Shown here one piece after another: positions 3,637 to 52,727 of a DNA stretch of 64,000 nt. Position 1 is the first letter of the stretch. Every line of letters begins with the position of its first letter. This DNA comes from an uncultured Candidatus Saccharibacteria bacterium. GTDB lineage: Bacteria > Patescibacteriota > Saccharimonadia > Saccharimonadales > CAIOMD01. The notes below the pieces were generated by a model that had not been told where the DNA came from, searched no databases, and saw only the letters and a program-made list of their open reading frames with translations. Both the position numbers and the translations under genes were made by a program. Where the stretch lies: the NCBI GenBank assembly GCA_963716565.1, contig OY970318.1, positions 830-64,829 of the forward strand, read 5' to 3'.

Positions 3637-3810
3637 GCAAGCCAAAGACAAAACAATGGCTTATATATCTAGCTTAAGAAACGAGATATTTGGTAATTTA
3701 TAAAGAAACTCTAAAAACATCCAAAAAACTCCTTTAAGCCTAAGCATTAGCAGAGTATAATTTAAGCTAGCTGCGGGTAAAAAAATAACAAAAAGTGTAA
3801 AGGGCTCTGT

Positions 3811-11391
<7,581 letters not shown>

Positions 11392-11488
11392 GTGGTGTCG
11401 TTGCCGAAGTAAGGCCATGGATACAGCCGTCGACTAAAAGATAGCCTCAGCCTCTAGTCTTTAATCTTAAGCATTGTTATAATTTACA

Positions 11489-14400
11489 TTGATGGGAAAA
11501 GAAAAAATAACCCCGTCGTTATTAGGGTGTTCCAATAAAAATATGCAAAAACCCAATAGGGGTTTGTGTTTGAGGCGCCCTAACCCTGTAAAACGAATTC
11601 ACTTAAAACTTCTAAAGAATGTAAGCTATAACGTCTGGTTCAATAAATTTAGGAATCACAAAAAGACTCATTATGCTTATGGGGCTTTTGTTGTAGTTAT
11701 TTTAGCCTCAATTTTGATTACTAACTTAATGCCGAACAAGGCTGTAGCTACGGCCACCATGACCTGGACGAATAACGGCGACTTTAGTATGAACAAAGTC
11801 GGTGCTTGTGAAGCTACTACTTTAAACGGTGTAACGGTTACTGGTACAGCTTATACAGACGAAACGTGTGCCACGACTGGAATAGATTCAAGTACGACTT
11901 TAGCGGCAGGGCCGGCGTTTCTCAATAATGTTATTTCTTTGGCGGGAGGCGGTAGTCACGGTGTTGCCGCTAGGGCGGACGGAACAGTTTGGAATTGGGG
12001 TGGTAACGGTCGTGGCCAACTAGGAAACAATACATACATCTCTAGTATGTTCCCTGTTCAAGTTATGAATCCTGCCGGTAACGGTTATCTGACAGACATA
12101 GTCGCTGTCACTGCTGGCGCCGGACACACCCTAGCCCTTAAGAGCGATGGTACGGTTTGGGGGTGGGGGTATAGTGCTCATTATGAGTTAGGAGGGTACA
12201 CTACAGACAGATTATTGCCTGTCCAGGTGAATGGCCTGTCGGATATCATTGCGATATCTGGGGGTACTTGGCACTCTTTAGCCCTTAAGAGCGATGGTAC
12301 GGTTTGGGCTTGGGGGTATGGTGCTTATGGCCAACTAGGTATTAACTGGACCGGGAATACCGGAACACCTGTGCAGGTGAAAGATACGCCCGGAACTGGT
12401 TACCTAACTGGGATTACTGCAATTAGCGCTGGCGATAACCATTCTATAGCACTAGCGGGTGATGGCGCTGTCTGGGCATGGGGAAGAAATGATGATGGCA
12501 GGATAGGCGATGGAACTTCGGGCGTCGATAGAAGATTGCCTGTGCAGGTAAAAGATAGTGTCGGGTCTGGTTATCTAACAAATATAATTTCAGTAGCAGC
12601 GGGCGGAGGTCATAGTCTTGCCGCTGGCTCAGACGGTTATGTTTGGGCTTGGGGCGGGAATGTTGCGGGCCAGGTTGGTGATGGCACAATGACTTCCCCC
12701 AGAACCCTACCAATCAAAGTAAAAGACACTTCTGGTACAGGTTATTTGTCTAGTGTTATTAAGGTTACAGCGGGGTCATCTCACTCTATGGCCTTGAAGA
12801 ACGATGGCGGTGTTTGGGCGTGGGGATACAACAATTATAGTCAAATAGGCGATGGTTCACCTACGGACCACTCCACTCCGGTTCGCGTAAAAGATGCAGC
12901 CGGTACCGGATATTTAACCAATATATCTGCCATTTCTGGAGCCTATAATAATCCATTTGCCTTAGATAATGATGGCACGGTTTGGGCGTGGGGAGGGAAT
13001 AATGTTGGACAGGGTGGTTTTAGTTCGGTGTCTAGGTCTGCATCTAACACTACAACTCTGGATAAACCGAATCACATTCTGGCAATGGTGGATGCGACAA
13101 AGCTAGCAGATGTTACAAAAATAACCTCTAATTTGGCCTTAAAAAATGACGGCACAATCTGGGGTTGGGGAAATAATAGCAGTGGCGAGCTGGGAGATGG
13201 TACGGCTGTTAATCAGTCTGTGGCTGTACCTGTGGACGGCGGATATTTTAGTAATGTGGCGAGCATTGCATCTACAGCGCATTCAGTGGCCTTAAAAAAT
13301 GACGGAACAGTTTGGTCTTGGGGTTATGGTTATTATGGATCGCTAGGTATAAATTCCAATGTCAATAAATATAGTCCAGTTCAGGTGAGAGATGCTAGTG
13401 GAGCTAATTATTTAACTGATGTGATTGCCATTGCCGCCAACGGTTATTTCTCTTTGGCTCTAAAAAACGACGGCAGTGTTTGGGCGTGGGGCCAAAATAG
13501 TAGTGGCCAGCTAGGAGATGGAACTACTAGTCAAAGAAACCTACCAGTGCAAGTAAAGGATCCAGCTGGTACGGGGTATTTAACAGGCATTGTAGCGATC
13601 AGTGCTGGTAGTTCGCACTCTTTTGCTGTAAAAAATGACGGCACAATCTGGGGCTGGGGATACAATGCTTCCGGATGTCTCGGAGATAATACTACAACCC
13701 AGCGAACTTTACCCGTGCAGGTAAAAGATGCAGCTGGCACAGGCTACCTGTCTAATGTTGTCAAGATTATAGCCGGTGGAGGTACTTCCATGGCTATCTT
13801 GAACGATGGTACTGCTTGGGCTTGGGGGGTTAACAGTAATGGCCAAATTGGAGACGGTACTACTTCACAAAGAAATTTACCCGTACAGATTAAGGATACT
13901 GCCGGTACCGGCTACTTAGTTAATGTAGTATCTGTGTCTTCCGGTAGTAATTTTTCGATAGCGTCAACATCAGATGGTAGAGTTTGGGCTTGGGGTTATG
14001 GCTATTACGGTCAACTGGGAGGAAGCAGTGGATCAAGTCTGCCGCAACCCGTTTTAGATCCATCCGGTTCTGGGTATTTGTCTGGTGTTGCGGCAGTGTC
14101 TGCAGGTTCCAATCGCTCAGTGGCGCTTAAATCTGATGGCACCGTAATGTCTTGGGGCTACAATCTTGGTGGTCAGGTGGGGAATGGAACGCAAATTCCT
14201 ACCTATGTACCGGATAATGTATATTCAAATATTGACCTCAACGCCGGCTACGTTGGCACTGGCACAGCCTCCAACTTCATTGCCGACATGGGCTCTAACC
14301 GTAAAACCAAGTGGTACGACCTAGATTGGAACACTAGTGCTTTGCCAGCTAATACTAGCTTGAAGTTCAATGTTCGTAGCAGTGATGATAAAGTGAGTTG

Positions 14401-17056
14401 GTCAGACTGGAGCAGTGACTTCACTCAAAACACACCTGGTTCCACAACTGGCAATGCCGACATCTCGGCCCTTCCATTCAGTCGCTACCTGGAAGTCAAA
14501 GCTACCCTTACCTCTACCGACTTAGTTAATACCCCAACTTTGCAAGATTTCACCATCACCCACATGAACGATCAGAATGCCCCAACTTGGGACTACCCAG
14601 TTGCCATTCCGGTTTACACCGACGACACTAAAGCTACAGCCCTTACTTCCAGCTCTTGGCAAGCCAACAACAATCTAACTAGTATCTATGCTGATTGGTC
14701 TGGAGCCACCGAACCAGAAGAAGAATCAGGCATTGCCCACTACTACGTCTACCTTGGTACCGACAACACCGCTAATCCCATCACCGCTGGTGTAGATATG
14801 GATACCGCCACCGAAGGTTACATCGATTTACCAAACAATCCCACGGACGGCACTTACTACCTGCGCGTTACCGTATCTGACCTAGCTGGCAATAACCTCA
14901 ACATGCCATCCGGTAGTGATTTGTTCAAATATCTTTATGATGGCACTAAACCTAATAACCCATCTTATATTTCGGTCTCGCCAGTGGGCTGGAGCATAGC
15001 CAACAGTTTTGACTTTAGCTGGCCCGAAGCCCTAGACCCTGGCAGCGGTTCGTCTAATATCGATTACTATCAATATCGCAAAGCTGGTGGGGGCGACACT
15101 TGGCATGACACTGTCGACAGATCGATTATCGGGATCACTTCTTACCAAGATGGTCGTAACGAATTCTTCGTTCGAGCTATCGACAACGCTGGTAATATTG
15201 CCGACAACCAAACCAGCGTTTATTACTACTACAACGGTTCGGCTCCAAGCGCTCCTGCTGGTTTGGACGTGGTACCACCCAACGCTACAACTAACAGCTT
15301 TACCTTCACCTGGTCAGAACCAGCTGTCCACAATGCCGACATTCGTGGCTATTACTACTCCATTGGCCCCGAGCCGACTATTAACAATTCGGTCTTTACT
15401 ACTAACACTACTACCGGCGCTATTCCGGCTGCCACCCAGCAGGGCTTTAATACCTTTTACGTAGTAGCAGTTGACGCTGATGACCAAATTAACTGGGGCA
15501 GTTATGCCGAAATCCAATTTGAATGTAACACTACCGCCCCAGGTATACCAGGCGGAGTGGTAATTAGTGATAGTAGCAACCGAGCTGATGAAAACTGGGC
15601 ACTCACTACGGCATGGAGCGCCTCAGCCGGAACAGTCCACCATTATAATATCTACCGTTCTACTGATGGCATTAACTTCTCGGCCATCGGCCAAACGGGC
15701 AGTACAGGCTTTTTTGACTCCGGCCTATCCAATACATCCACTTATCATTACAAAATTACCGCCGTAGATAACGCTGGTGCCGAATCAGCCTTTTCGTCGA
15801 CCGTCTCTAAGCAACCAACTGGCAAGTTCACCGAACCGCCGTTAATTGTTACTGGTCCTGATGTCGACATTAAAGCCACTCGTGCCACCATAACTTGGAG
15901 TACCGACAGAGCTTCATCCAGCTTTGCGGCTTACTCTAAAGATAACTCTTACGCTGAATCTAAGGGCCAGGTGGACTCGGTTACTTCGCATAGCGTAGAA
16001 CTATCTGGCTTAGAAGCTGGTACTACCTACAACTTCAAGGTCCAATCTTTAGACGAAAACCGCGACTACCCAATCGAAGATGCTTATTCTGGTGAATTCA
16101 ATTTTACCACTCAATCGGCCCCTGGTATCGCCGAAGTTAATGTTTCGGATATTCGGTTAACTTCAGCCACCGTTACCTGGAAGACTACCACAGTAGCCAC
16201 CTCTACAATTGTTTATGGTAAGACTGCCAACTATGGTCAAACTATCACTGACCAATCCGGCTCGGCTGTTACCACTCACACAGTTAAGCTAGAGGGTCTA
16301 GACCATACCACTCCATATTTCTTTAAGATTTATGGTACGGACAGTGATGGCAACCAGCTAGTCTCCGACAACTACGCCTTCAGTACTCTAACCTATCCCC
16401 GAGCTTATGATGTGCGTTTTGAGCAGCAAAAGAACACGGCTACATCCACTCTAAAGGTTACCTGGACGACTAATGTGCCCACGAGCTCCATTGTTACTTA
16501 CAACCAAGAAGGTGAAAGCTCAAAAGAAGTATCCAAATCTACCCTAGAAACTACTCACTCTATGTTAGTGCCCAATCTTCAAGACAACGTGCTGTACTAC
16601 ATGAGCGTTGGTGGCCGTGATGCCTATGGTAACGCCGCCTTGTCAGACAGTCAACGAGTTAAAACCGACTACGACACCCGTCCGCCAGCCGTCACCGACA
16701 TCGTCACCGAAAGCACTTCGTCTGGTTATGGCTTAGATACCAAGGCCCAAATAGTGGTATCTTGGATGACCGACGAACCAGCCACATCCCAAGTGGAATA
16801 TGCCGAAGGCGTAACAGGTGACAGCTACAATATGCGCTCCCCAGAAGATAGTGGCTTAAGCACTTCTCATGTTGTTGTATTAACCGATCTCAAACCATCT
16901 AGCTCCTACCACTTTCGAGTTATCTCTAAAGATACCTCTGCCAACCAAACTATCTCCGAACCAGACTCGGTTCTAACCGACATAGCTCGGGCTTCTATCA
17001 TCGACATCATTATTAAGTCCCTCCAAGATACTCTTGGCTGGCTGTTTGGAGGATAG
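11489..17056 (+). CDS. Giant (1855 aa) membrane-anchored RCC1-repeat (beta-propeller) / fibronectin-III-like surface protein
   Basis: There is an N-terminal TM segment (YAYGAFVVVILASILITNL). Many RCC1-type repeats follow (G..H..AL..DGTVW.WG.N..GQLGDGT...R..PVQV), spanning about 11900-14200. The C-terminal part has repeated ~95-aa FN3/purple-acid-phosphatase-N-like modules (I.W.T....S.V.YG........T.H.V.L.GL...T.Y.F.V.S.D..GN). The start is ambiguous (TTG 11489, ATG 11492 or ATG 11543). Confidence 0.8.
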   Translation: MMGKEKITPSLLGCSNKNMQKPNRGLCLRRPNPVKRIHLKLLKNVSYNVWFNKFRNHKKTHYAYGAFVVVILASILITNLMPNKAVATATMTWTNNGDFSMNKVGACEATTLNGVTVTGTAYTDETCATTGIDSSTTLAAGPAFLNNVISLAGGGSHGVAARADGTVWNWGGNGRGQLGNNTYISSMFPVQVMNPAGNGYLTDIVAVTAGAGHTLALKSDGTVWGWGYSAHYELGGYTTDRLLPVQVNGLSDIIAISGGTWHSLALKSDGTVWAWGYGAYGQLGINWTGNTGTPVQVKDTPGTGYLTGITAISAGDNHSIALAGDGAVWAWGRNDDGRIGDGTSGVDRRLPVQVKDSVGSGYLTNIISVAAGGGHSLAAGSDGYVWAWGGNVAGQVGDGTMTSPRTLPIKVKDTSGTGYLSSVIKVTAGSSHSMALKNDGGVWAWGYNNYSQIGDGSPTDHSTPVRVKDAAGTGYLTNISAISGAYNNPFALDNDGTVWAWGGNNVGQGGFSSVSRSASNTTTLDKPNHILAMVDATKLADVTKITSNLALKNDGTIWGWGNNSSGELGDGTAVNQSVAVPVDGGYFSNVASIASTAHSVALKNDGTVWSWGYGYYGSLGINSNVNKYSPVQVRDASGANYLTDVIAIAANGYFSLALKNDGSVWAWGQNSSGQLGDGTTSQRNLPVQVKDPAGTGYLTGIVAISAGSSHSFAVKNDGTIWGWGYNASGCLGDNTTTQRTLPVQVKDAAGTGYLSNVVKIIAGGGTSMAILNDGTAWAWGVNSNGQIGDGTTSQRNLPVQIKDTAGTGYLVNVVSVSSGSNFSIASTSDGRVWAWGYGYYGQLGGSSGSSLPQPVLDPSGSGYLSGVAAVSAGSNRSVALKSDGTVMSWGYNLGGQVGNGTQIPTYVPDNVYSNIDLNAGYVGTGTASNFIADMGSNRKTKWYDLDWNTSALPANTSLKFNVRSSDDKVSWSDWSSDFTQNTPGSTTGNADISALPFSRYLEVKATLTSTDLVNTPTLQDFTITHMNDQNAPTWDYPVAIPVYTDDTKATALTSSSWQANNNLTSIYADWSGATEPEEESGIAHYYVYLGTDNTANPITAGVDMDTATEGYIDLPNNPTDGTYYLRVTVSDLAGNNLNMPSGSDLFKYLYDGTKPNNPSYISVSPVGWSIANSFDFSWPEALDPGSGSSNIDYYQYRKAGGGDTWHDTVDRSIIGITSYQDGRNEFFVRAIDNAGNIADNQTSVYYYYNGSAPSAPAGLDVVPPNATTNSFTFTWSEPAVHNADIRGYYYSIGPEPTINNSVFTTNTTTGAIPAATQQGFNTFYVVAVDADDQINWGSYAEIQFECNTTAPGIPGGVVISDSSNRADENWALTTAWSASAGTVHHYNIYRSTDGINFSAIGQTGSTGFFDSGLSNTSTYHYKITAVDNAGAESAFSSTVSKQPTGKFTEPPLIVTGPDVDIKATRATITWSTDRASSSFAAYSKDNSYAESKGQVDSVTSHSVELSGLEAGTTYNFKVQSLDENRDYPIEDAYSGEFNFTTQSAPGIAEVNVSDIRLTSATVTWKTTTVATSTIVYGKTANYGQTITDQSGSAVTTHTVKLEGLDHTTPYFFKIYGTDSDGNQLVSDNYAFSTLTYPRAYDVRFEQQKNTATSTLKVTWTTNVPTSSIVTYNQEGESSKEVSKSTLETTHSMLVPNLQDNVLYYMSVGGRDAYGNAALSDSQRVKTDYDTRPPAVTDIVTESTSSGYGLDTKAQIVVSWMTDEPATSQVEYAEGVTGDSYNMRSPEDSGLSTSHVVVLTDLKPSSSYHFRVISKDTSANQTISEPDSVLTDIARASIIDIIIKSLQDTLGWLFGG

Positions 17057-23383: not shown

Positions 23384-23770
23384 GGGACTGACTTTAGCTC
23401 GACGTTGAATATTAACAATTTATGCATGCAAGCCGGTTTGTGCACCGTTACCGTACTACAATAAGTAGATGGCAAAAACTTTCTACAGCGTGTAGCTAGC
23501 ATGTTTTCCATGCCAGCTTACGCACCAGCCCTAGTTTAATCTAAGGCGATTGCTTGGTTTGATGCCAGGTAGAACCAAAGCAGTCTCATATTTTCTGGCT
23601 GCCAATCTTGAGCACCGTTTGAGCTCATTTTTGTAAGCTTTTCGAACTGCGGCTAATAGTTTTTTGTCTGTTTTATAACTAGTAGCCTAAGACACCCCAA
23701 ACAGAATAAGCTTGTAGAGGCATGAGTTGTTGTTCGACGGACCCGGGTGCGATTCCCGGCAGTTCCACCA
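23384..23770 (+). ncRNA. ssrA: tmRNA (SsrA)
   Basis: The 5' end GGGACTGACTTTAGCTCGACG resembles the canonical GGGGCUGAUUCUGGAUUCGACG. At the 3' end the T-arm is CCGGG-tgcgatt-CCCGG, followed by CAGTTCC-A-CCA. The 7-bp acceptor stem pairs 23384-23390 with 23760-23766 and includes a G3:U70 pair. A candidate tag ORF GGC AAA AAC ... GCC CTA GTT TAA runs 23470-23538. Its reading frame is tentative. Confidence 0.85.
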
Positions 23771-37927: not shown

Positions 37928-38962
37928 ATGAAAACAGTTTATGTTGGTTTAAGTGGCGGAGTAGACAGTTCGGTGGCGGCCGCCTTGCTAAAAGAGCAGG
38001 GCTATCATGTGGTTGGTGCCTACATGAAAAACTGGAGCCAGAGCTTGCCTGGTTTTACTTGCCCATGGCGCGATGATTACCAAGATGCTAAGCGAGTTGC
38101 CGTGCAACTTGGCATTGATTTTGAGTTATTTGATTTCGAAAAAGACTATCGCCAAAAAGTGGTGGACTATATGATTGATGTCTTTAAGTCTGGCCAAACA
38201 CCAAATCCAGATATTATGTGCAACCAAGAGATAAAATTTAAATTGTTTTTAAATACAGCTTTAGAAAAAGGCGCCGATTTTATTGCCACCGGCCACTATG
38301 CTCGTACTAAAAACGGCCAGCTATTTAAGGCTAAAGACGACAATAAAGACCAAACTTATTTCTTATACCGAGTTACTAGCCAGGCTTTGGCTAAAACAAT
38401 TTTTCCGCTGGGCGACTTAACAAAGCCCCAAGTCCGGGAACTGGCTAAAAAATACAATTTAGTTACGGCTACCAAAAAAGAAAGTATGGGAATTTGTTTT
38501 GTTGGCAAAGTGCCAATTAAAGACTTCTTGCTAAATTATGTTAAATCAAAAACAGGGAACATTGTTGATCAATTTGGCCGTGTTATTGGCCAGCACGATG
38601 GAGCCATCTTTTATACCATCGGCCAACGGCATGGTTTAGATGTTGGCGGCGGTTTGCCATATTACGTTGTTGGCAAAGATATGAAAAAGAACGAAGTTTA
38701 TGTATCTACCCAACTTAACGATGAGAAGTTGTGGCTTAAGGAGCTGACGCTAACAGAATGGCACTGGATAAACCGGTCGCCCGTGCCCAATAAAGTCTAC
38801 GAAATCCGTACTCGGCATCGTGCTCCACTGGCTAAGGCTGTGTTTAAAGATGAATCCTTAAAAACACTAAGCCTAAAAGAGCCGGTTAGGGCAATTACTC
38901 CTGGCCAATCAGTGGTTATCTACGATGGCCAAGAAGTCCTTGGCGGTGGCATCATTATTTAG
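37928..38962 (+). CDS. mnmA: tRNA-specific 2-thiouridylase
   Basis: The PP-loop is VGLSGGVDSSVAA. Other motifs are KNW, NPDI.CN..IKF, ATGHYAR and DQTYFL. Confidence 0.9.
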   Translation: MKTVYVGLSGGVDSSVAAALLKEQGYHVVGAYMKNWSQSLPGFTCPWRDDYQDAKRVAVQLGIDFELFDFEKDYRQKVVDYMIDVFKSGQTPNPDIMCNQEIKFKLFLNTALEKGADFIATGHYARTKNGQLFKAKDDNKDQTYFLYRVTSQALAKTIFPLGDLTKPQVRELAKKYNLVTATKKESMGICFVGKVPIKDFLLNYVKSKTGNIVDQFGRVIGQHDGAIFYTIGQRHGLDVGGGLPYYVVGKDMKKNEVYVSTQLNDEKLWLKELTLTEWHWINRSPVPNKVYEIRTRHRAPLAKAVFKDESLKTLSLKEPVRAITPGQSVVIYDGQEVLGGGIII

Positions 38963-39071
38963 ACGTTGGATAATGGACGTTAGACAATAGAGGGCTACCT
39001 ACGCAGGTTATGTTATTTGGCATTTCTAACATCTAATGTCCATCGTCTATCGTCTAATAATGGTGTACAAT
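38956..39071. promoter_or_regulatory. Inverted pair of 5-heptamer arrays flanking a ~30-nt spacer; the right arm abuts TGGTGTACAAT
   Basis: The minus-strand array (38990 down to 38956) reads ctattgt ctaacgt ccattat ccaacgt ctaaata. The plus-strand array (39026-39060) reads ctaacat ctaatgt ccatcgt ctatcgt ctaataa. It is followed by TGGTGTACAAT (39061-39071). The two arms can pair over about 30 positions with a few mismatches. Confidence 0.6.
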
Positions 39072-39113
39072 CTTAGGTGTATATAAGCATTAACAATTAA
39101 CAGGAGACCGATA

Positions 39114-39416
39114 ATGGGCCTATTTAGTTTTTTTAAAAAGCAGTCCGACCAGCAAGTACAAAATCAAAACATGGCTGATAACCAGCTTAGCCCTGCAGCC
39201 GATGTGCCTGCAGCTACTCCACCAGTAAACGTTAACCAAGTGCCGCCGTCACCAGCTCCAATGTCACCAAGCAATCCAGAACCGGTTGTTCCACCCACAG
39301 AACCAGCCGCCCCAGCAGAAAATGCTAACGATGTAGCAGGTGATTCACTAGATGGTGCTCAAAGCGATAGCGGCAGCGATTCGGGCAGTTCTGACGCCGG
39401 TGACTCCAGCTGGTAG
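39114..39416 (+). CDS. Pro-rich, acidic low-complexity protein (100 aa) with an amphipathic N-terminus
   Basis: GGAG precedes the ATG. The sequence runs MGLFSFFKKQ..., then a PxP-rich middle, then a DSGSDSGSSDAGDSSW tail. Confidence 0.55.
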   Translation: MGLFSFFKKQSDQQVQNQNMADNQLSPAADVPAATPPVNVNQVPPSPAPMSPSNPEPVVPPTEPAAPAENANDVAGDSLDGAQSDSGSDSGSSDAGDSSW

Positions 39417-39432
39417 TTTTTAAGCTTAACCA

Positions 39433-39462
39433 TTGACTAAAAATTAAATAATTTTTTAAAGT
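39433..39462 (+). promoter_or_regulatory. Weak candidate promoter for the structured RNA
   Basis: TTGACT lies at 39433-39438, followed by an 18-nt spacer and TAAAGT at 39457-39462. Confidence 0.3.
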
Positions 39463-39468
39463 GTTTTT

Positions 39469-39924
39469 TGCTATTATTTAAAGAACCTCTTGTTGGGAGG
39501 TCTTGGGGGACTATAAGCAAGCGGTCCGGGCAAATCGGGGCATCACGTTTTGTTCAAGTAATGAACCGTACGGGCTTGATCTGTGATGAGTTAGCGGTGA
39601 CACTCAACAACACCAGCCGGGGTGCCCTTAGGGGCTACCACCAATACGCATGGGTTTACCCAGCCGTGGCGAAGAGCCAACGGCCCGAGTCACTCCTTGA
39701 TGTATGGGGGTGACATCCATCTGTGTTACCTGTGGCTCAGGTATAGGCGGAAGCGCCTTATCAGGGCCATCAAGGTCAAGACCACTGTGGGGGTATCCAA
39801 AACCTATGCGCCTTCCAGGCAGGCACGAAACCAAGTTCCCCGGTTTGCCTTTCGTGCCTGAAAACTCTGCGGATAGTCCAGTGGTATCCATTCCATCTGG
39901 GCTATCCGCTATAACCATAGTCTT
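39469..39924 (+). ncRNA. GC-rich structured non-coding region directly upstream of the RT; candidate retron msr-msd RNA (boundaries uncertain)
   Basis: GC rises to 58% (counted over 39601-39660) against 17% in 39421-39480. The ORF track shows overlapping ORFs in several frames on both strands with no SD or start context, a typical non-coding signature. An 11-bp perfect hairpin pairs 39820-39830 with 39850-39860. A 13 to 16-bp hairpin spans 39869-39909. A 13-bp long-range complement pairs GGGCAAATCGGGG (39528-39540) with CCCCGGTTTGCCT (39838-39850). Confidence 0.55.
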
Positions 39925-40995
39925 ATGAGCCAGATACAATTATTTGATCCAGAAGCATTAATGCAACCAGCGGTTGACCCCAGGGTCGAAAAATTATTGA
40001 GTGGCTTTGAGGACGCTAGCTTTAGGACATTCCCAAAACAAGAGCGCGATAAAGTTCGTTGGCTGCACGATCCCAACGAAAGCATGCGAGAGGCACATGA
40101 ACTTATTAAAGAGCTCGCTGCGAATGCTAGTGCCATATCGCCACATGCCACTGGGCTACAAGGTGGTAGTCGTGCCAATGCTGAACGGCATTTGGGCAAT
40201 AAGTTTTTTTATTTGATTGATTTAAAAGATGCCTACGGACAAATACAATTACCAGCGCTTGCAGAATTTTTAGGCAACCATGGCTTTCCAGCCGAGACTG
40301 CTGACATCGAAACTATTTTAAATCGTTTTTGTCGCAAACCCGACGGGCAGGGTCTTTGCCAAGGGGGCCCAGCCTCGCCGTTACTATTTAACATTGCCCT
40401 TTATGATGTCGACCAACAAATAGCGGGAATATGCGAAAAGCATGAACTAACTTATACGCGATATGCGGATGATTTGGCTATTTCTGGCCGTGAATCAATT
40501 GGCGATAAGAAGCGTAAGCAAATACGTGGAGTTCTTGAAGAGGCTGGGTTAGAAATTAGCCATAAAAAGACTCACCGCCATAGTTTGGCGAATGCTCCTG
40601 TAGTTGTGACTGGCATTCAGATAAATCGCAGCGGTTCAATTATTTTACCTACGCCCAAACAGCTAAGAGTAGCTAATATTATAAATGAGCTGTGCTTTCA
40701 AGTATTCGAGGATGGCGAACCATTAACCGAATTGCAGGTCCAAAAGGTGGCTGGCTACAAAGGCATGGTTATGTCTGCTATCGATGGGCGTCGAAAAGAT
40801 CTAACGGCTTTCGAAAAAGATGCTCTTGTAAAAGCCGAAGCATTAAGACTTTCGTATAAGCAGAGTAGGGAGACGGTCAATTTGGGCTTCACGGCTCTTA
40901 GATTATTCAATGGTCGACCGATGCAAATCGAAATTGTCGATGGTAGATTCCGCAGAGTAGTCGGCCCATCATTTGAACTGCCAAAACGGGATTAA
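39925..40995 (+). CDS. Retron-type reverse transcriptase (356 aa)
   Basis: Motifs in order are SRANAERH (NAxxH), YLIDLKDAY, LCQGGPASPLLFN (QGxxxSP), YTRYADDLAIS (YADD codons 40462-40473), SHKKT and PVVVTGIQIN (VTG). The protein aligns by eye along its whole length with retron Ec86 RT. Confidence 0.85.
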   Translation: MSQIQLFDPEALMQPAVDPRVEKLLSGFEDASFRTFPKQERDKVRWLHDPNESMREAHELIKELAANASAISPHATGLQGGSRANAERHLGNKFFYLIDLKDAYGQIQLPALAEFLGNHGFPAETADIETILNRFCRKPDGQGLCQGGPASPLLFNIALYDVDQQIAGICEKHELTYTRYADDLAISGRESIGDKKRKQIRGVLEEAGLEISHKKTHRHSLANAPVVVTGIQINRSGSIILPTPKQLRVANIINELCFQVFEDGEPLTELQVQKVAGYKGMVMSAIDGRRKDLTAFEKDALVKAEALRLSYKQSRETVNLGFTALRLFNGRPMQIEIVDGRFRRVVGPSFELPKRD

Positions 40996-41022
40996 TGTAA
41001 GAAATCTGTTAAAATATATCTG

Positions 41023-43029
41023 ATGAACGCATCTGAAATTCGTAAAGCCTTTTTGGATTATATGGCAAAAAATGGCCACACTGTAATTCCGCGTGCCAAT
41101 TTGGTGCCACAAAATGACCCAACTACTTTATTCACCGGTTCGGGCATGCAACCGCTGGTGCCGTATTTGTTAGGCGAAAATCACCCAAGTGGCAACAGGG
41201 TAGCTAATAGTCAAACCTGTTTGCGTGCTGAAGATATAGAAGAAATTGGCGACATGTGCCATACCACCTTTTTTGAAATGCTTGGCAACTGGAGTTTTGG
41301 AAATTATTGGAAGGAAGAACAGCTAGCTTGGCTATTTGAATTTCTAACAGATAAGGTTGGACTTGAGCCATCAAAACTTTACGTAACTTGTTTTTCTGGT
41401 GACAAAGAAGTAGGAATACCGCCAGATGAAGATTCGGCCAGAAAATGGAAAGAACTATTTAGCCTCAAGAATATAGAGGGCAAAATAGTCGAAATCGGTT
41501 CTAAAAAAGACGGTGGCATCAAAGGTATGCAAGACGGTCGGATTTTTTATTACGACGCCGGCAAAAACTGGTGGAGTCGAGCTGGGACCCCTAAAGAAAT
41601 GCCTGCTGGCGAACCTGGCGGCCCAGACAGCGAAGTTTTTTATCGTTTTTCTGACGATGAGCACAGTGAAGAAGAAAAGAAACAGTTTGGCGAACAATGC
41701 CACCCCAATTGCGAATGCGGTCGTTTTTTAGAAATCGGCAACTCAGTGTTTATGCAATATATTAAAAGAGAAGATGGTTCTTTTGGTCCCTTGCCAAAGA
41801 ATAATATTGACTTTGGTGGCGGTTTAGAGCGCATTGCTGCAGCTAAAGCTAACAATCCGGATGTCTTTAAGATTGATTTGCTCTGGCCGATTATTCAAAA
41901 ACTCGAAGAATTATCGAGCATGAAATATGATTTTACTCCTGGCGATTTGGGTTACGAAACGGTTCCCGAATGCTGGATAAAAGTTATGGAATCTATGCGG
42001 GTGATTGCCGATCACTTGCGAGCGGCCGTTTGGCTGGCAGTGGATGGGGTCGTGCCCAGCAACAAAGTTCAGGGCTATGTAATGCGTCGCTTAATGCGCC
42101 GTGCTATTCGCTACGCCTTAGAACTTAAGATAGAACAAGATTTATGCGAGCGCATTGTTCCTACGATTATTGATATTTACCAAGCCGATTACCCAGAGGC
42201 GAAAGAAGCTAAAGACAAGATTATAGATGTATTGACCAAAGAAGAAAAAATCTTCCGGCAAACCCTAAAAAAAGGGCTAAAGGAGTTCGAGGGTTATTTT
42301 GCAAAGATAGCAGTCGAATATGACACAAAAGTTGCCACTCCAGAAGAGGTAGCGGAAAAAACGGGGCAATTTGTCCCTCTGTTGAAGTTAACGGGAGAAA
42401 TATTATTTAAGCTATATGATACTTATGGTTTTCCGATTGAACTCTCCAAAGAGGAAGCCATTAACAGAGACATCAAGGTTGATGACAATGCTGAAGAGGA
42501 ATTCAATAAGCTCATGCAAGAGCAGCGGCAGCGTTCGCAGACGGCAGCGCAAGGGGCTTTTAGGGGCGGCTTAGCCGATAGCAGTGAAATGACTACCAAA
42601 TATCACACTGCGGCGCACCTGCTAATGCAAGCCCTAAGAAGCGTATTAGGTGATCATGTTAGCCAAAAGGGCAGCAACATCACCGCCGAGCGTTTGCGTT
42701 TAGACTTTAGCCATCCCGAAAAGGTAACGCCCGAACAACTGGCCGAAGTCGAGAAAATTGTTAACGAAAAAATCCAAGCCGACTTACCTGTTACCTGCTC
42801 CGAACAAGATGTAAAACAAGCTATGGCCGAAGGCGCTCAAGGCGTTTTTGGCGATAAATATGGCGACAAGGTAAAAGTTTACTCAATCGGCGACTTTAGC
42901 AAAGAAATCTGTGGCGGCCCACACATTGACCACACTGGCCAGCTAGCCGAAGGTGATAAAAAATTTCGCATTACAAAAGAAGAGTCTTCTAGTGCAGGGG
43001 TTAGGCGAATTAAGGCCGTTCTAGCCTGA
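41023..43029 (+). CDS. alaS: Alanyl-tRNA synthetase, short form (668 aa, no C-Ala domain)
   Basis: Motifs are MNASEIRKAFLDYMAKNGHT, FTGSGMQP, FFEMLGNWSFG.YWK, editing-site HTAAHLL and CGGPH. An extended -10 TGTTAAAAT lies at 41006-41014. Confidence 0.9.
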   Translation: MNASEIRKAFLDYMAKNGHTVIPRANLVPQNDPTTLFTGSGMQPLVPYLLGENHPSGNRVANSQTCLRAEDIEEIGDMCHTTFFEMLGNWSFGNYWKEEQLAWLFEFLTDKVGLEPSKLYVTCFSGDKEVGIPPDEDSARKWKELFSLKNIEGKIVEIGSKKDGGIKGMQDGRIFYYDAGKNWWSRAGTPKEMPAGEPGGPDSEVFYRFSDDEHSEEEKKQFGEQCHPNCECGRFLEIGNSVFMQYIKREDGSFGPLPKNNIDFGGGLERIAAAKANNPDVFKIDLLWPIIQKLEELSSMKYDFTPGDLGYETVPECWIKVMESMRVIADHLRAAVWLAVDGVVPSNKVQGYVMRRLMRRAIRYALELKIEQDLCERIVPTIIDIYQADYPEAKEAKDKIIDVLTKEEKIFRQTLKKGLKEFEGYFAKIAVEYDTKVATPEEVAEKTGQFVPLLKLTGEILFKLYDTYGFPIELSKEEAINRDIKVDDNAEEEFNKLMQEQRQRSQTAAQGAFRGGLADSSEMTTKYHTAAHLLMQALRSVLGDHVSQKGSNITAERLRLDFSHPEKVTPEQLAEVEKIVNEKIQADLPVTCSEQDVKQAMAEGAQGVFGDKYGDKVKVYSIGDFSKEICGGPHIDHTGQLAEGDKKFRITKEESSSAGVRRIKAVLA

Positions 43030-44004
43030 AAGCCCTTGGACTGTTTCTTCTAAAATGGTTTTAAGGTGTCTTGTAAGCGCGTAGTAGGACGTTGGATTGT
43101 TTTCTGGAGTATATGTTTCTTTTCTCTCTTTTCCGCTAGAGTCCAACTGAACTTGGGTGCCGTCTCTGTCTCTAGCAATATATCGTTCGGCAACAGTTTG
43201 CTCAACAGTATAACCAAAGGCATCACTGGCATCTCCCAAGCAGAGGTAGGAGAATTTTTTAGCCATCGTTGTGTTGTCGTGGTTCTGTAGCAACAGTACA
43301 GAATATAACTTGTACCGTTGTTTTCTAGGATTTTCACCTTTTTCTGTTTCCTCGCGGGGTTCTTCCTCGGTATTAATAGCTAATCCTAGTCTATCTCCGT
43401 TTGGTAATGTCTGAATGCAGGTTTGGCTCTCAACCGATTTACCTTCGTAACAGCCTATACATTTTGTAATCCCCTCTATTAAGCGATCATCTAAGACATC
43501 GTCTTGGTATACAGATGGATAGTCAATTGGTAATAGCTCACCGCCACTTCTCGCGGCCAGCAAATTGCCCAGTAAATGCGTGGCAAGGAGAGGGTTGCGA
43601 ATTATCGTTTGTTTTTGAGTTGGCGCAGATATAAGCATCGCATTTTTGTTGGTTGTGATATTTATGGGCATACCATCTGCTTTAAAAGTTATTTCTGACT
43701 TCCAATTCAAACCTTGCAGGGCACTTAACTTTGGGCCCAAACGGCGGAATCTTACGTTTAACTCTGTGGTCAAAAAGCTCTCTGGCAGTCCTAACGATTC
43801 CCCAATATCTTCTGGTAATGTTTTTCTGTGCAGCCTAAAAGCATCCTCGGCCTCCACGCTACAGTTGTGCGAAGAAAAAGCTTGCATAAATTCAAAGAAG
43901 CTTCTAGACTCAAGAAATTCTTCTAGGGCTCTGGGTTCGGTAAAAATATCTTGGCCCATTTCACCAAATTGCCAGGGGCTATCGTATTCAGAACCACTTC
44001 TCAT
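43021..44004 (-). CDS. Hypothetical protein (327 aa), convergent with alaS and overlapping it by 9 nt
   Basis: This is a long ORF. No motif was recognised. Confidence 0.55.
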   Translation of the reverse strand: MRSGSEYDSPWQFGEMGQDIFTEPRALEEFLESRSFFEFMQAFSSHNCSVEAEDAFRLHRKTLPEDIGESLGLPESFLTTELNVRFRRLGPKLSALQGLNWKSEITFKADGMPINITTNKNAMLISAPTQKQTIIRNPLLATHLLGNLLAARSGGELLPIDYPSVYQDDVLDDRLIEGITKCIGCYEGKSVESQTCIQTLPNGDRLGLAINTEEEPREETEKGENPRKQRYKLYSVLLLQNHDNTTMAKKFSYLCLGDASDAFGYTVEQTVAERYIARDRDGTQVQLDSSGKERKETYTPENNPTSYYALTRHLKTILEETVQGLSG

Positions 44005-51261: not shown

Positions 51262-51284
51262 CTCGTGGTATGCTGTTAGTACAG

Positions 51285-52727
51285 ATGTCCAATAGCTTTT
51301 ATTTTTACGATTTAGAAACTAGCGGTATCAGCGCACGTAATGCTCGCATTATGCAATTTGCTGGCCAGCGTACTGACTTAGACTTAAAACCAATCGGCGA
51401 ACCCGAAACTTTTTATATTAAAATTACCCCAGATGTTTTGCCCGACCCAGAAGCTATTTTGCTTACCGGCATAACTCCTCAAAAGACCTTACTGGATGGC
51501 ATCACCGAAGCCGAATTTTTAAAGTATTTTTACGATAAAATCGCTACACAGGGTACCATTTTTACGGGCTTTAATAGCATTCGTTTTGATGATGAATTTG
51601 TTCGCTTTTTAAACTACCGCAACTTTTGGGATGCCTACGAGTGGCAATGGCAGGGTAGCAAAAGCAAATGGGATATTTTAGATGTTAGCCGTATGACCCG
51701 CGGGCTGAGGCCAGAAGGTATTGTTTGGCCATTTGATTCTAATGGCAAACCCAGCAACAAGCTAGAACTGTTAGCCAAAGTTAATAAGCTAAATCATACC
51801 CAAGCTCACGACGCCGCCAGTGATGTACAAGCTACTATTGCCGTAGCCAAACTAATTAAGCAAAAACAACCCAAGCTGTTTGATTATTTATTAACCATGC
51901 GCGATAAAAAGCGCATAGAAGAACTAGTGCAAAAGCCCGAACCATTTGTTTATACCTCTGGGCGCTACAATGGCGAATTCGAAAGAACTACCGTGGCCAT
52001 TACTTTGACTAATCATCCCACCCAAAAAGGAGCCGTTTTTGTTTACGACTTAAGGGTTGACCCAGCCAAGTGGGCCAAAAAAACACCTAAAGAATTGGCT
52101 GAATATTTAGCTAAATTTAAGTACGAAGAGAATGAGGAACGTCTGCCGGTAAAGCAATTGCAATTTAACCGTTGCCCAGCCGTAGCGCCGTTAACGGTGT
52201 TAGATGAAGCCAGCCAAAAGCGCCTAAAGCTAGATTTAAAAATGGTAGACAAAAACCTAAAGAGTTTGCTAAGTTTTAGTGATCTTGGCAAAAATCTGCA
52301 AGAAGCTATAAAGCTTAACGAACAGCAAAAACAATCTGCTTTAATAATTGATATAGAAGACGTCGATAGTCAGCTTTACGATGGCTTTTTTAACGATGAC
52401 GACAAAGACAAAATGCAAGTTGTGCGCCAGGCCAACCAAGACACTTTGGCCGATTTGCACTTAGCCTTTAACGACGGCCGTTTAGAAAAACTGCTGCTGT
52501 TGTATAAAGCCCGCCAGTTTCCTAAAAGTTTAAGTGCCGACGAGCAAAAACAGTGGCAAGATTATTGCCAGCACAAGTTGTTAGCCGGTGGCGACCAAAG
52601 CCAATTTGCTATGTATATAAATAAGCTCAACGAGCTATCTGTAAAAGAAGATTTAAGCGACCAGCAGCGCTATTTGTTAGAAGAATTAAAATTCTACGCC
52701 GAAAGCATTATGCCCTATGAAAATTAA
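51285..52727 (+). CDS. sbcB: Exodeoxyribonuclease I
   Basis: Motifs are FYFYDLETSG, RIMQFAGQRTD, GFNSIRFDDEF.R, W...D.LDV.R....LRPEGI.WP and AHDA.SDV.ATIA.AKL. The protein aligns by eye with E. coli ExoI along its length. Confidence 0.85.
   Translation: MSNSFYFYDLETSGISARNARIMQFAGQRTDLDLKPIGEPETFYIKITPDVLPDPEAILLTGITPQKTLLDGITEAEFLKYFYDKIATQGTIFTGFNSIRFDDEFVRFLNYRNFWDAYEWQWQGSKSKWDILDVSRMTRGLRPEGIVWPFDSNGKPSNKLELLAKVNKLNHTQAHDAASDVQATIAVAKLIKQKQPKLFDYLLTMRDKKRIEELVQKPEPFVYTSGRYNGEFERTTVAITLTNHPTQKGAVFVYDLRVDPAKWAKKTPKELAEYLAKFKYEENEERLPVKQLQFNRCPAVAPLTVLDEASQKRLKLDLKMVDKNLKSLLSFSDLGKNLQEAIKLNEQQKQSALIIDIEDVDSQLYDGFFNDDDKDKMQVVRQANQDTLADLHLAFNDGRLEKLLLLYKARQFPKSLSADEQKQWQDYCQHKLLAGGDQSQFAMYINKLNELSVKEDLSDQQRYLLEELKFYAESIMPYEN

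What the first reader, a model, noticed from the sequence alone, without database searches (positions are those of the whole stretch)
39925..40995. Retron-type reverse transcriptase with no recognisable effector, wedged between essential genes
The 356-aa protein carries the RT core (YADD, QGxxxSP). It also has the two motifs regarded as retron-specific: NAxxH (SRANAERH) and VTG (PVVVTGIQ). It aligns by eye with Ec86 RT over its whole length. Characterised retrons are tripartite defence systems made of RT, ncRNA and an effector such as an ATPase/HNH, NDT, TIR, TOPRIM, protease or 2TM protein. None of those is present here. The same-strand neighbours are a 100-aa Pro-rich acidic ORF upstream and alaS downstream. 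A retron in what looks like a minimal CPR-type genome, with either no effector or a novel one, would be an unusual system.
Basis: partly seen in the sequence, partly recalled or inferred. Interest (0 to 1): 0.8.

Follow-up and report, generated by a model that had tools for sequence, protein, structure and literature searches.

The report
Effector-less retron-like RT plus long ncRNA
A Saccharibacteria genome carries a 1.6-kb cassette made only of a roughly 430-nt structured RNA gene and a retron-type reverse transcriptase; in the about 45 family loci examined no toxin or other partner gene is conserved next to it, so the family could show what a retron does without an effector.

Summary
The ORF is real: 39925-40995, 356 aa, with an intact YADD, QGxxxSP, NAxxH and VTG. 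All sequence profiles, and more weakly fold comparison, place it nearest retron RTs, ahead of group II, DRT, Abi and DGR enzymes. It matches none of the 13 typed retron RT groups: its best E-value is 1e-37, where typed retrons score 1e-120 or better on their own type.

The 508-nt "spacer" upstream is a GC-rich, strongly folded ncRNA gene with its own extended -10 promoter. It has a 13-bp long-range a1/a2 stem (39528-40 / 39838-50), a conserved 5' domain, a variable central domain and a 3' hairpin. Window and L001 share 23 compensatory pairs.

A related Saccharimonadales contig has mnmA, the Pro-rich ORF, alaS and ftsA with neither the ncRNA-RT nor the 327-aa ORF. The Pro-rich ORF is therefore resident, and ncRNA plus RT is a 1.6-kb presence/absence cassette.

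Fifty-one further metagenomic loci belong to the same RT clade. About half of those with enough flank show a clearly significant a1/a2 stem. No neighbouring protein family recurs in more than 4 of about 45 loci.

Best reading: a two-component, effector-less retron-like element. It is a new variant of a known kind. cDNA synthesis and biological role are inferred, not shown.

The parts
39417..41003 (+). Whole cassette (promoter, ncRNA, RT), present here and absent from the syntenic site of the closest RT-less relative
   Evidence: L010 has mnmA, the Pro-rich ORF, a 39-nt gap, then alaS. The motif TCTGTTAAAATA just upstream of the alaS ATG is shared, which puts the 3' junction within 10 nt of the RT stop codon. 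The 5' junction is only approximate, within 39417-39440.
39433..39477 (+). Predicted promoter: -35-like TTGACT (39433-38) and extended -10 TGCTATTAT (39469-77). Predicted transcription start is near 39484.
   Evidence: The consensus scan found the pairing TTGACT, 18 nt, TAAAGT. TGnTAT(T/A)AT lies 29-67 nt upstream of a1 in the window, L001, L005 and L008. This is inferred and has not been mapped.
39484..39915 (+). Structured non-coding RNA gene, the retron-like msr-msd candidate
   Evidence: GC is 55% against 44% for the genome. The fold z-score is -4.56, with 0 of 100 shuffles folding as well. No Rfam family matches even at E<=10. The region is conserved upstream of the RT in L001, with 23 pairs changed on both sides against 0-5 in slid controls. 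Indels not divisible by 3 and dissimilar antisense ORFs argue against coding.
39528..39540 (+). a1 arm of the long-range stem (GGGCAAATCGGGG)
   Evidence: It pairs with 39838-39850 over 13 bp. It is the top-scoring long-range stem in this region. Only 4 of 100 shuffles reach it. A stem in the same position but with a different sequence occurs in L002 (twice), L003, L004, L005, L007 and L008, and about 12 of the later metagenomic loci also show a significant one.
39838..39850 (+). a2 arm of the long-range stem (CCCCGGTTTGCCT). It ends 74 nt before the RT ATG.
39541..39690 (+). Conserved 5' domain: hairpins 39542-50/39578-87, 39590-93/39598-601 and 39616-21/39638-84. Proposed msr-like RT-recognition part.
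   Evidence: Identity to L001 is 54% here, against 36% in the central domain. The helices are kept in both sequences. The two tandem ncRNA copies in L002 likewise keep the small hairpins and diverge in the long one.
39691..39826 (+). Variable central domain (helices 39729-32/39820-23 and 39735-47/39756-67). Proposed msd-like template region.
   Evidence: This is the least conserved part (36% identity, 18 gapped columns), yet its helices are kept by compensatory changes, 5 of them in helix 14. Its assignment as template is an inference.
39820..39860 (+). Alternative local hairpin CAGGCACGAAA / TTTCGTGCCTG (11 bp) with a2 in its loop
   Evidence: inverted repeat I14. By eye, L001, L004, L007 and L008 have a 5-6 bp equivalent (sequences). 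Its significance is unknown and it was not tested statistically.
39869..39909 (+). 3' hairpin between a2 and the RT start codon
   Evidence: It has 17 pairs, 7 of them changed on both sides relative to L001. No U-run follows it. In L002 the equivalent position carries canonical terminator hairpins.
39925..40995 (+). Retron-lineage reverse transcriptase, 356 aa, catalytically intact
   Evidence: The AF2 model has pLDDT 86.7. Residues 314-356 are low-confidence in the model, so no extra folded domain is predicted. Foldseek top hits are retron RTs. D99, R179, D182, H89 and G230 are invariant, and Y180 and D183 nearly so, across 34 clade members. Against L001, dN is 0.29 with dS saturated.

Best explanation
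The locus is a self-contained two-component retron-like element of about 1.6 kb. It consists of its own promoter, a structured ncRNA of about 430 nt, and a retron-lineage RT. In this Saccharimonadales lineage it lies between a resident Pro-rich ORF and alaS.

Proposed mechanism:
1. The ncRNA is transcribed from the extended -10 promoter. (Inferred.)
2. It folds so that the 13-bp a1/a2 duplex brings its ends together. (Supported by comparative data.)
3. The RT binds the conserved 5' hairpins. (Inferred.)
4. The RT primes on a guanosine 2'-OH next to the a1/a2 duplex. (Inferred.)
5. The RT copies the variable central domain into a single-stranded RT-DNA of roughly 100-150 nt that stays bound to the RT and RNA. 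(Inferred.)

No effector is encoded in cis, either here or in the other clade loci examined. The RT-ncRNA-cDNA complex must therefore act on its own or through an unlinked cellular or phage partner. Its patchy distribution and varied insertion sites point to an accessory, conflict-related role, most plausibly phage defence or sensing, rather than a housekeeping one.
For: RT lineage: retron profiles score far above all other RT classes. Fold comparison agrees more weakly: retron RTs at 1e-16 to 1e-12 against group II RT at 3e-11. The retron motifs and catalytic residues are conserved clade-wide. The RT is under purifying selection.

ncRNA in the window:
- GC-rich, with fold z-score -4.56.
- Conserved in L001 with 23 compensatory pairs, against 0-5 in slid controls.
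- The 5' domain is conserved and the central domain variable.

ncRNA across the clade:
- An a1/a2 stem of 10-16 bp spanning 215-470 nt ends 0-180 nt before the RT.
- It is the top-scoring long-range stem in 8 of the first 9 ncRNA copies. Each reaches p<=0.06 and three have 0 of 100 shuffles as good.
- It is clearly significant (at most 2 of 30 shuffles) in about 20 of 40 distinct later loci.
- In L002, two tandem ncRNA paralogues keep a1/a2 and the small hairpins but diverge in the long hairpin.

Cassette:
- The closest RT-less relative, L010, has an empty site.
- The same ncRNA-RT unit sits inside a pentose-phosphate operon in L008 and after fusA in L002.
- Its 3' context differs in the 57%-identical P0003.

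No effector:
- Clustering of neighbours within 5 kb across about 45 distinct loci finds no family in more than 4 loci, and none at a conserved position.
- The Pro-rich ORF and orf327 have no homologues at other RT loci.
- The RT has no extra folded domain.
- The window holds no recognisable defence genes.
Against: - No cDNA, branch point or priming G was shown, and no conserved G context could be identified next to a1.
- The ncRNA is about twice as long as classical retron ncRNAs and matches no Rfam family.
- Only one sequence (L001) can be aligned to the window ncRNA. Nucleotide-level covariation therefore rests on two sequences and on a structure derived from them.
- About half of the clade loci give no significant uninterrupted a1/a2 stem with my simple scan.
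- The RT lies outside all typed retron groups, so retron biochemistry is an extrapolation.
- orf327 is a second lineage-specific insertion only 2 kb away and its function is unknown.
- The defence role is pure inference.
Confidence: 0.6

Rival explanations
1. It is a canonical tripartite retron whose effector is simply not adjacent. The effector would be either the ORFan orf327 (43021-44004, minus strand, beyond alaS) or a gene elsewhere in the 0.8-Mb genome. The RT-msDNA complex would hold that toxin in check until phage infection.
For: orf327 is, like the ncRNA-RT, absent from the syntenic region of L010, so two lineage-specific insertions flank alaS. It has no detectable homologue or domain, as is common for new effectors. 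Mestre et al. raise trans-acting effectors as a possibility for orphan retrons (PMC7736814).
Against: orf327 has no homologue in any of the 67 other loci held, about 55 of which are RT loci of this clade. No protein family recurs near the RT in about 45 loci. orf327 is convergent and separated from the RT by an essential gene. The single-sequence AF2 model is uninformative, with pLDDT 35. L010 is only 70% identical in AlaS, so independent indels are expected.
Confidence: 0.15
2. The RT uses the long ncRNA in a way that does not produce msDNA, as effector-free DRT systems do. Examples are rolling-circle or repetitive cDNA synthesis (DRT2-like) and homopolymer synthesis (DRT9-like). The cDNA or its product would then be the effector.
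For: The ncRNA is long and highly structured, there is no protein effector, and the RT stands alone. PDB and Foldseek hits include the DRT2 and DRT9 RT-ncRNA complexes, though more weakly than retrons.
Against: Sequence profiles favour retrons by more than 20 orders of magnitude over DRT2, DRT3 and DRT9. The a1/a2 architecture is the retron hallmark. The antisense and sense ORFs in the ncRNA are not conserved between the window and L001, so no conserved cDNA-encoded ORF is apparent.
Confidence: 0.12
3. The cassette is a selfish or neutral mobile retroelement that persists because it inserts harmlessly between genes, perhaps also supplying a promoter to the downstream gene. It would have no host function.
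For: The unit is compact and found in many unrelated intergenic sites. The RT stop lies within 10 nt of the insertion junction. In 12 of 40 loci a same-strand gene starts less than 60 nt downstream.
Against: There is one copy in the 64-kb window. No terminal repeats or target duplications were seen. No integrase or endonuclease domain is present. Synteny and the ORF are retained between the window and L001, despite 40% RT divergence and in streamlined genomes, with dN far below dS. Retrons have never been shown to be autonomously mobile (established knowledge).
Confidence: 0.1
4. It is another kind of retroelement that was misread: a group II intron fragment, a DGR, or a CRISPR-associated RT.
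For: CPR genomes are rich in DGR RTs (PMC8632793). The structured RNA of about 450 nt lying 5' of the ORF superficially recalls intron domains I-III.
Against: - No Rfam group II or any other family hit at E<=10.
- Only 27 nt follow the ORF, leaving no room for domains V and VI.
- No template/variable repeat pair in 64 kb.
- The motif is QGxxxSP rather than the DGR-type motif (for the sequence; my own knowledge for the DGR motif).
- No CRISPR-like repeats.
- Profile scores for these classes are far lower.
Confidence: 0.02

Closest known systems
Classical retrons such as Retron-Eco1 (Ec86, type II-A) and Ec83/Ec78 (type I-A)
   Same: The RT fold and motifs match (NAxxH, QGxxxSP, YADD, VTG), and these are the best sequence and structure matches. 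The ncRNA lies immediately upstream on the same strand. A long-range a1/a2 duplex encloses hairpins, and a2 lies tens of nt before the RT.
   Different: There is no effector gene in cis, here or in the other clade loci examined. The RT is outside all 13 typed groups. The a1-a2 span in the window's subclade is 314-415 nt, where my recollection for classical retrons is about 150-250 nt. No Rfam msr match. The host is a reduced-genome Saccharibacteria, and the context is housekeeping genes rather than a prophage or defence island.
Orphan retrons of the Retron-Eco5 (Ec107) branch (Mestre et al. 2020, PMC7736814)
   Same: An RT plus ncRNA without a consistently associated protein. The authors left open whether such retrons use trans effectors or have another function.
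   Different: The window RT scores only 102 bits on the RT_Ec107-like model, lower than on the III-A and II-A models, so it is not a member of that branch. The Ec107 branch is interpreted as having secondarily lost a PRTase partner. Here a whole deep clade lacks partners.
Defence-associated RTs with ncRNA and no separate toxin (DRT2, DRT9)
   Same: A single RT gene plus a long structured upstream ncRNA, with the function carried by the cDNA rather than by a protein effector. This is a functional analogy.
   Different: The RT lineage differs: Drt2 scores 47 bits against 131 bits for the retron model, and PDB DRT2 scores 2e-11 against 3e-38 for retrons. The ncRNA has the a1/a2 retron architecture.
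Retron-Eco2 (Ec67, type I-C) RT-Toprim fusion
   Same: A subclade of this family fuses the RT to a DnaG-derived module, the Zn_ribbon_DnaG domain. Ec67 fuses the RT to the DnaG-like Toprim domain.
   Different: Only the zinc ribbon is present, with no Toprim nuclease domain. The window RT has neither.

Membership tests
Retron (sensu lato) | RT of the retron lineage with retron-specific NAxxH and VTG motifs plus an intact YxDD | tested here: met
   The motifs are in the sequence. H89 and G230 are invariant in 34 clade members. Retron profiles are the best in PADLOC, NCBIfam and PDB, and Foldseek top hits are retron RTs.
Retron (sensu lato) | Adjacent ncRNA with an a1/a2 inverted repeat longer than 8 bp that encloses several hairpins, close to the RT (criteria quoted in PMC10849725) | tested here: met
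   The 13-bp a1/a2 stem at 39528-40 / 39838-50 encloses about 300 nt of hairpins and ends 74 nt before the RT. The architecture recurs with different sequences in the 9 first ncRNA copies and is significant in about half of the later clade loci.
Retron (sensu lato) | Priming guanosine next to a1, and production of 2'-5' branched msDNA | not testable with these tools
   No conserved G context could be defined beside a1. msDNA needs an experiment.
Retron as a tripartite defence system (Mestre types I-XIII) | Conserved effector or accessory protein, or a fused effector domain, in cis | tested here: not met
   No fused domain. No conserved neighbour in about 45 loci. The Pro-rich ORF is resident at the empty site. 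orf327 is unique to this genome among the loci held.
Retron as a tripartite defence system (Mestre types I-XIII) | RT assignable to one of the typed RT groups | tested here: not met
   The best PADLOC E-value is 7e-37 (RT_III-A). The 34 first members were scanned at E<=1e-20 and none does better than about 1e-37. Ten more sampled at E<=1e-40 gave no hit at all. Typed controls score 1e-120 to 1e-218. NCBIfam retron_St85_RT scores 131 bits, below its cutoff of 235. An NJ tree separates the clade from I-C, II-A, III-A and "other".
Retron as a tripartite defence system (Mestre types I-XIII) | Anti-phage, abortive-infection phenotype | not testable with these tools
   No experimental data exist, and four literature searches found nothing on retrons in Saccharibacteria or Patescibacteria.
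Diversity-generating retroelement | Template repeat near the RT and a matching variable repeat in a target gene | tested here: not met
   Sensitive blastn of 39417-39924 against the 64-kb window found only the self hit and short chance matches.
Group II intron | Ribozyme domains I-VI flanking the ORF, and a maturase/X domain | tested here: not met
   No Rfam hit at E<=10 in 38950-41050. Only 27 nt lie between the RT stop and alaS. TIGR04416 scores 50 bits against a cutoff of 300.
UG/DRT/Abi reverse transcriptases | RT assignable to a UG/DRT/Abi class | tested here: not met
   Drt2 scores 47 bits (cutoff 390) and Drt3a 36 bits (cutoff 200). All of the top 25 PADLOC hits are retron RT models. 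PDB AbiK scores 1.5e-6 and DRT1 2e-7.

The most novel reading that the evidence does not exclude
A large, deep-branching lineage of retron-like RT plus ncRNA pairs works without any protein effector. At least 150 clusters at 50% identity were seen, including members in reduced Saccharibacteria genomes. The RT-ncRNA-cDNA particle itself would be the functional end product, for example as a decoy, sensor or inhibitor acting directly on phage or host nucleic-acid machinery. This could represent the ancestral two-component state from which toxin-coupled retrons evolved.
Probability: 0.3. Interest if true: 0.85.

Novelty: new variant of a known kind. Interest (0 to 1): 0.62.

Why it matters
Retrons are currently understood as toxin-antitoxin-like tripartite defence systems, in which the RT-msDNA complex only guards an effector. 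A whole clade that keeps the RT and a large structured ncRNA under purifying selection, yet never a linked effector, asks what RT-DNA does on its own. Some members sit in streamlined genomes where useless DNA is quickly lost. The clade also offers compact two-part units of about 1.6 kb with unusually long templates, which could be useful for retron-based genome editing. It extends retron-like elements to Saccharibacteria, where four full-text searches found no report of them. Finally, it shows that current defence-system HMM sets miss this clade.

Tried and rejected
- Rfam at gathering threshold over the whole window, and at E<=10 over 38950-41050, found only the tmRNA elsewhere and chance hits.
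- A DGR TR/VR search by sensitive blastn found nothing.
- A scan for CRISPR-like repeats found nothing.
- The Pro-rich ORF as effector is rejected. It is present at the RT-less syntenic site of L010 and absent from the other RT loci.
- orf327 as effector remains unsupported. It has no Pfam, PADLOC, PHROG or PDB hit and no homologue in 67 loci, and the single-sequence AF2 model is unusable at pLDDT 35.
- Overlapping small ORFs inside the RT or ncRNA are not conserved in L001.
- The first genome contigs attempt failed because the alignment was too diverse. The second found only one locus.
- The first metagenome scan and a viral scan with patterns from close relatives found nothing.
- nhmmer with the window/L001 ncRNA profile found no other locus, so the ncRNA has no detectable primary-sequence conservation beyond L001.
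- No covariance model was built. The a1-a2 unit of more than 320 nt exceeds the practical calibration limit, and only two sequences can be aligned.
- The afdb50 fold library was unavailable. BFVD gave no close viral relative, at most 19% identity.
- The listing of cluster members returned no organism names.
- DNA for the P0003, P0004 and P0006 contigs could not be fetched.
- Literature searches for orphan or effector-less retrons, and for retrons in Saccharibacteria, Patescibacteria or CPR, found nothing specific.
Full report
**1. The observation.**
The + strand carries an ATG-to-TAA ORF at 39925-40995 encoding 356 aa. Its translation contains SRANAERH, CQGGPASP, RYADDL and PVVVTGIQ, that is NAxxH, QGxxxSP, YADD and VTG. 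Pfam RVT_1 matches at E=3.6e-22. Upstream on the same strand lies a 100-aa Pro-rich acidic ORF (39114-39416). Downstream, 27 nt after the RT stop, lies alaS (41023-43029). The wider neighbourhood is housekeeping: atpG, atpD and atpC, mnmA, alaS, ftsA, ruvX, mltG, obgE, sbcB, uvrA and uvrC.

**2. What kind of RT.**
- All 25 best PADLOC hits are retron RT models: III-A 125 bits, II-A 114, X 111, VI 104.
- NCBIfam ranks retron_St85_RT first at 131 bits. Group II scores 50, Drt2 47 and Drt3a 36.
- A profile of 33 clade members hits PDB retron RTs Ec83, Ec86, Ec67 and Ec78 at 3e-38 to 1e-30. The group II RT GsI-IIC scores 5e-14, DRT2 2e-11 and AbiK 1.5e-6.
- An AlphaFold model (pLDDT 86.7) has retron RTs as its top Foldseek hits, by a smaller margin over group II RT. 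Residues 314-356 are low-confidence, so no extra folded domain is predicted.

The RT is nevertheless not a member of any typed retron group. Its NCBIfam score is below the 235-bit cutoff. The 34 first clade members were scanned at E<=1e-20 and none does better than about 1e-37 on any type model; 10 more, sampled from the top 150 hits at E<=1e-40, gave no hit. Control retrons score 1e-120 to 1e-218 on their own type and 1e-45 to 1e-70 on foreign types.

A crude NJ tree separates the clade from I-C, II-A, III-A and "other" retrons. An exhaustive search of 1.8 billion representatives gives only 33 clusters at E<1e-30, while all of the top 150 reach 1e-23 or better.

**3. The missed component, an ncRNA.**
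The 508 nt between the Pro-rich ORF and the RT are 55% GC in a 44% GC genome. They fold with z=-4.56 and match no Rfam family.

The only close homologue with DNA is L001, whose RT is 60% identical. It keeps the order Pro-rich ORF, a gap of about 520 nt, RT, alaS. The two gaps align with indels not divisible by three. They share a consensus structure of 87 pairs, 23 of which changed on both sides; controls with the 3' partner slid by 1-3 columns give 0-5. Because that structure was derived from these two sequences, 100% pairing is circular. The excess of compensatory changes is not.

Landmarks:
- extended -10 TGCTATTAT at 39469-77, also present in L001, L005 and L008;
- a1 at 39528-40 pairing with a2 at 39838-50;
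- a 5' domain that is 54% identical to L001;
- a central domain that is 36% identical but kept by compensatory changes;
- a 17-bp hairpin at 39869-39909 with 7 compensatory pairs.

**4. The architecture is family-wide.**
In the other first-round loci (L002 with two copies, L003, L004, L005, L007, L008) a stem of 10-15 bp with an unrelated sequence occupies the same relative position. It is the top-scoring long-range stem in each except L004, where it ranks second. These stems span 266-415 nt and end 30-181 nt before the RT (678 nt for the distal L002 copy). Each reaches p<=0.06 against dinucleotide shuffles, and three have 0 of 100 shuffles as good.

A metagenome scan added 58 loci. Of these, 51 score 200-375 bits on the clade HMM, against less than 125 bits for 7 outliers. 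About 20 of 40 distinct loci with at least 450 nt of upstream sequence have a clearly significant a1/a2 stem, spanning 215-470 nt and ending 0-180 nt before the RT.

In L002, two tandem ncRNA paralogues each end in a terminator hairpin. They keep a1/a2 and two small hairpins but differ inside the long hairpin. That is the pattern expected for a conserved RT-binding msr and a free msd.

**5. No effector.**
- L010 is the contig with the most similar AlaS (70% identity). It has mnmA, the Pro-rich ORF, a 39-nt gap, alaS, a 26-nt gap, ftsA and orf548. It lacks both the ncRNA-RT and the 327-aa ORF.
- The shared motif TCTGTTAAAATA before the alaS ATG puts the 3' junction within 10 nt of the RT stop.
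- The Pro-rich ORF is therefore a resident gene.
- orf327 is a second lineage-specific insertion. It is an ORFan with no homologue in 67 loci.
- Elsewhere the ncRNA-RT unit sits between rpiB and rpe inside a pentose-phosphate operon (L008), after fusA (L002), and next to a SurA-like gene (L004 and P0006). The 57%-identical P0003 has yet another downstream context.
- All-against-all clustering of ORFs within 5 kb of about 45 distinct loci finds no family in more than 4 loci, and none at a fixed position.
- A subclade fuses the RT to a DnaG-type zinc ribbon, which is a DNA-binding module and not a toxin.
- PADLOC hits among 46 window proteins are all housekeeping look-alikes. They include a genuine ExoI at 51270-52727.

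**6. Rivals excluded.**
- There is no TR/VR pair in the window, so this is not a DGR.
- There are no CRISPR-like repeats.
- There is no room or Rfam signal for group II intron domains.
- ORFs inside the ncRNA are not conserved in L001.
- The RT is under purifying selection: dN is 0.29 with dS saturated, and AlaS has dN/dS 0.07.

**7. Interpretation.**
Shown or strongly supported:
- a retron-lineage, catalytically intact RT;
- a cognate structured ncRNA with retron-like a1/a2 architecture;
- a compact cassette that is present or absent at this site;
- membership of a large clade with no typed-group assignment and no cis effector.

Inferred:
- priming on a G next to a1/a2;
- synthesis of an msDNA of about 100-150 nt from the variable central domain;
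- an accessory, conflict-related role.

The last point rests on distribution. At least 120 Saccharimonadales-type AlaS clusters were found (a capped listing), but only 4 close RT homologues.

Orphan retrons are known in the Ec107 branch (PMC7736814). This RT is not of that branch, and here the orphan state characterises a whole deep clade. Four literature searches found nothing on retrons in Saccharibacteria or Patescibacteria.

**8. Verdict.**
I class it as a new variant of a known kind: an effector-less, untyped retron-like RT plus long ncRNA. Interest is moderately high. Its biochemical product and biological role remain to be tested.

Noticed in passing
window 43021-44004 (- strand): A 327-aa ORFan fills the whole alaS-ftsA gap and overlaps the alaS 3' end by 9 nt. 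The syntenic junction in L010 is only 26 nt, so this is a second lineage-specific insertion flanking alaS. It has no Pfam, PADLOC, PHROG or PDB hit and no homologue in 67 loci. The AF2 single-sequence model has pLDDT 35.
   Followed up: partly
L002 8931-9208 and 9425-9705: Two tandem paralogous copies of the ncRNA lie upstream of one RT in a Saccharibacteria MAG. Each is followed by a hairpin plus U-run terminator. a1/a2 and two small hairpins are conserved, while the long hairpin has diverged.
   Followed up: partly
L048; proteins P0008, P0010, P0083, P0094, P0123, P0156, P0161: A subclade of the same RT family carries a C-terminal DnaG-type CHC2 zinc ribbon (PF01807) without a Toprim domain.
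   Followed up: partly
window 139-17056: Three consecutive giant + strand ORFs of 1165, 2526 and 1855 aa. Among the two that were scanned, Pfam found RCC1-repeat/WD40_RLD and Flg_new_2 domains, so they are probably surface proteins.
   Followed up: no
window 51270-52727: This exodeoxyribonuclease I (sbcB equivalog, 518 bits) is most likely the protein that hits the PADLOC model "RT-associated SbcB" at 3e-49 (that scan did not name the member). It sits between obgE and uvrA, 10 kb from the RT, and looks like a resident repair gene.
   Followed up: partly
window 38950-39076: A long imperfect inverted repeat lies between mnmA and the Pro-rich ORF and gave a spurious mir-5014 hit. Similar sequence is present at the same place in L010 (7540-7600).
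   Followed up: no
window 39820-39860: A perfect 11-bp hairpin (CAGGCACGAAA / TTTCGTGCCTG) has a loop that contains the a2 arm. Shorter equivalents flank a2 in L001, L004, L007 and L008. It could compete with, or stack on, the a1/a2 duplex.
   Followed up: partly
L037, about 2100-2262: A 36-bp perfect inverted repeat (GCGCGTGCCGCCTCCGCGTAGTAGCGTTTTGAAACC) spans 163 nt and ends 262 nt upstream of that locus's RT. It is far longer than the a1/a2 stems seen elsewhere.
   Followed up: no
L005 1555-2205: An Exo_endo_phos (EEP) nuclease gene starts 16 nt after the RT stop in this 38%-identical relative. It is not seen at other loci, so it is probably a resident xthA-like gene.
   Followed up: partly
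L015, L016, L022, L030, L036, L039 (immediately 3' of a2): A short motif, CGCTGA or CCGCTGA, directly follows the a2 arm in several more distant clade members. Its meaning is unknown.
   Followed up: no
window 23384-23770: tmRNA gene with tag peptide GKNFLQRVASMFSMPAYAPALV.
   Followed up: no
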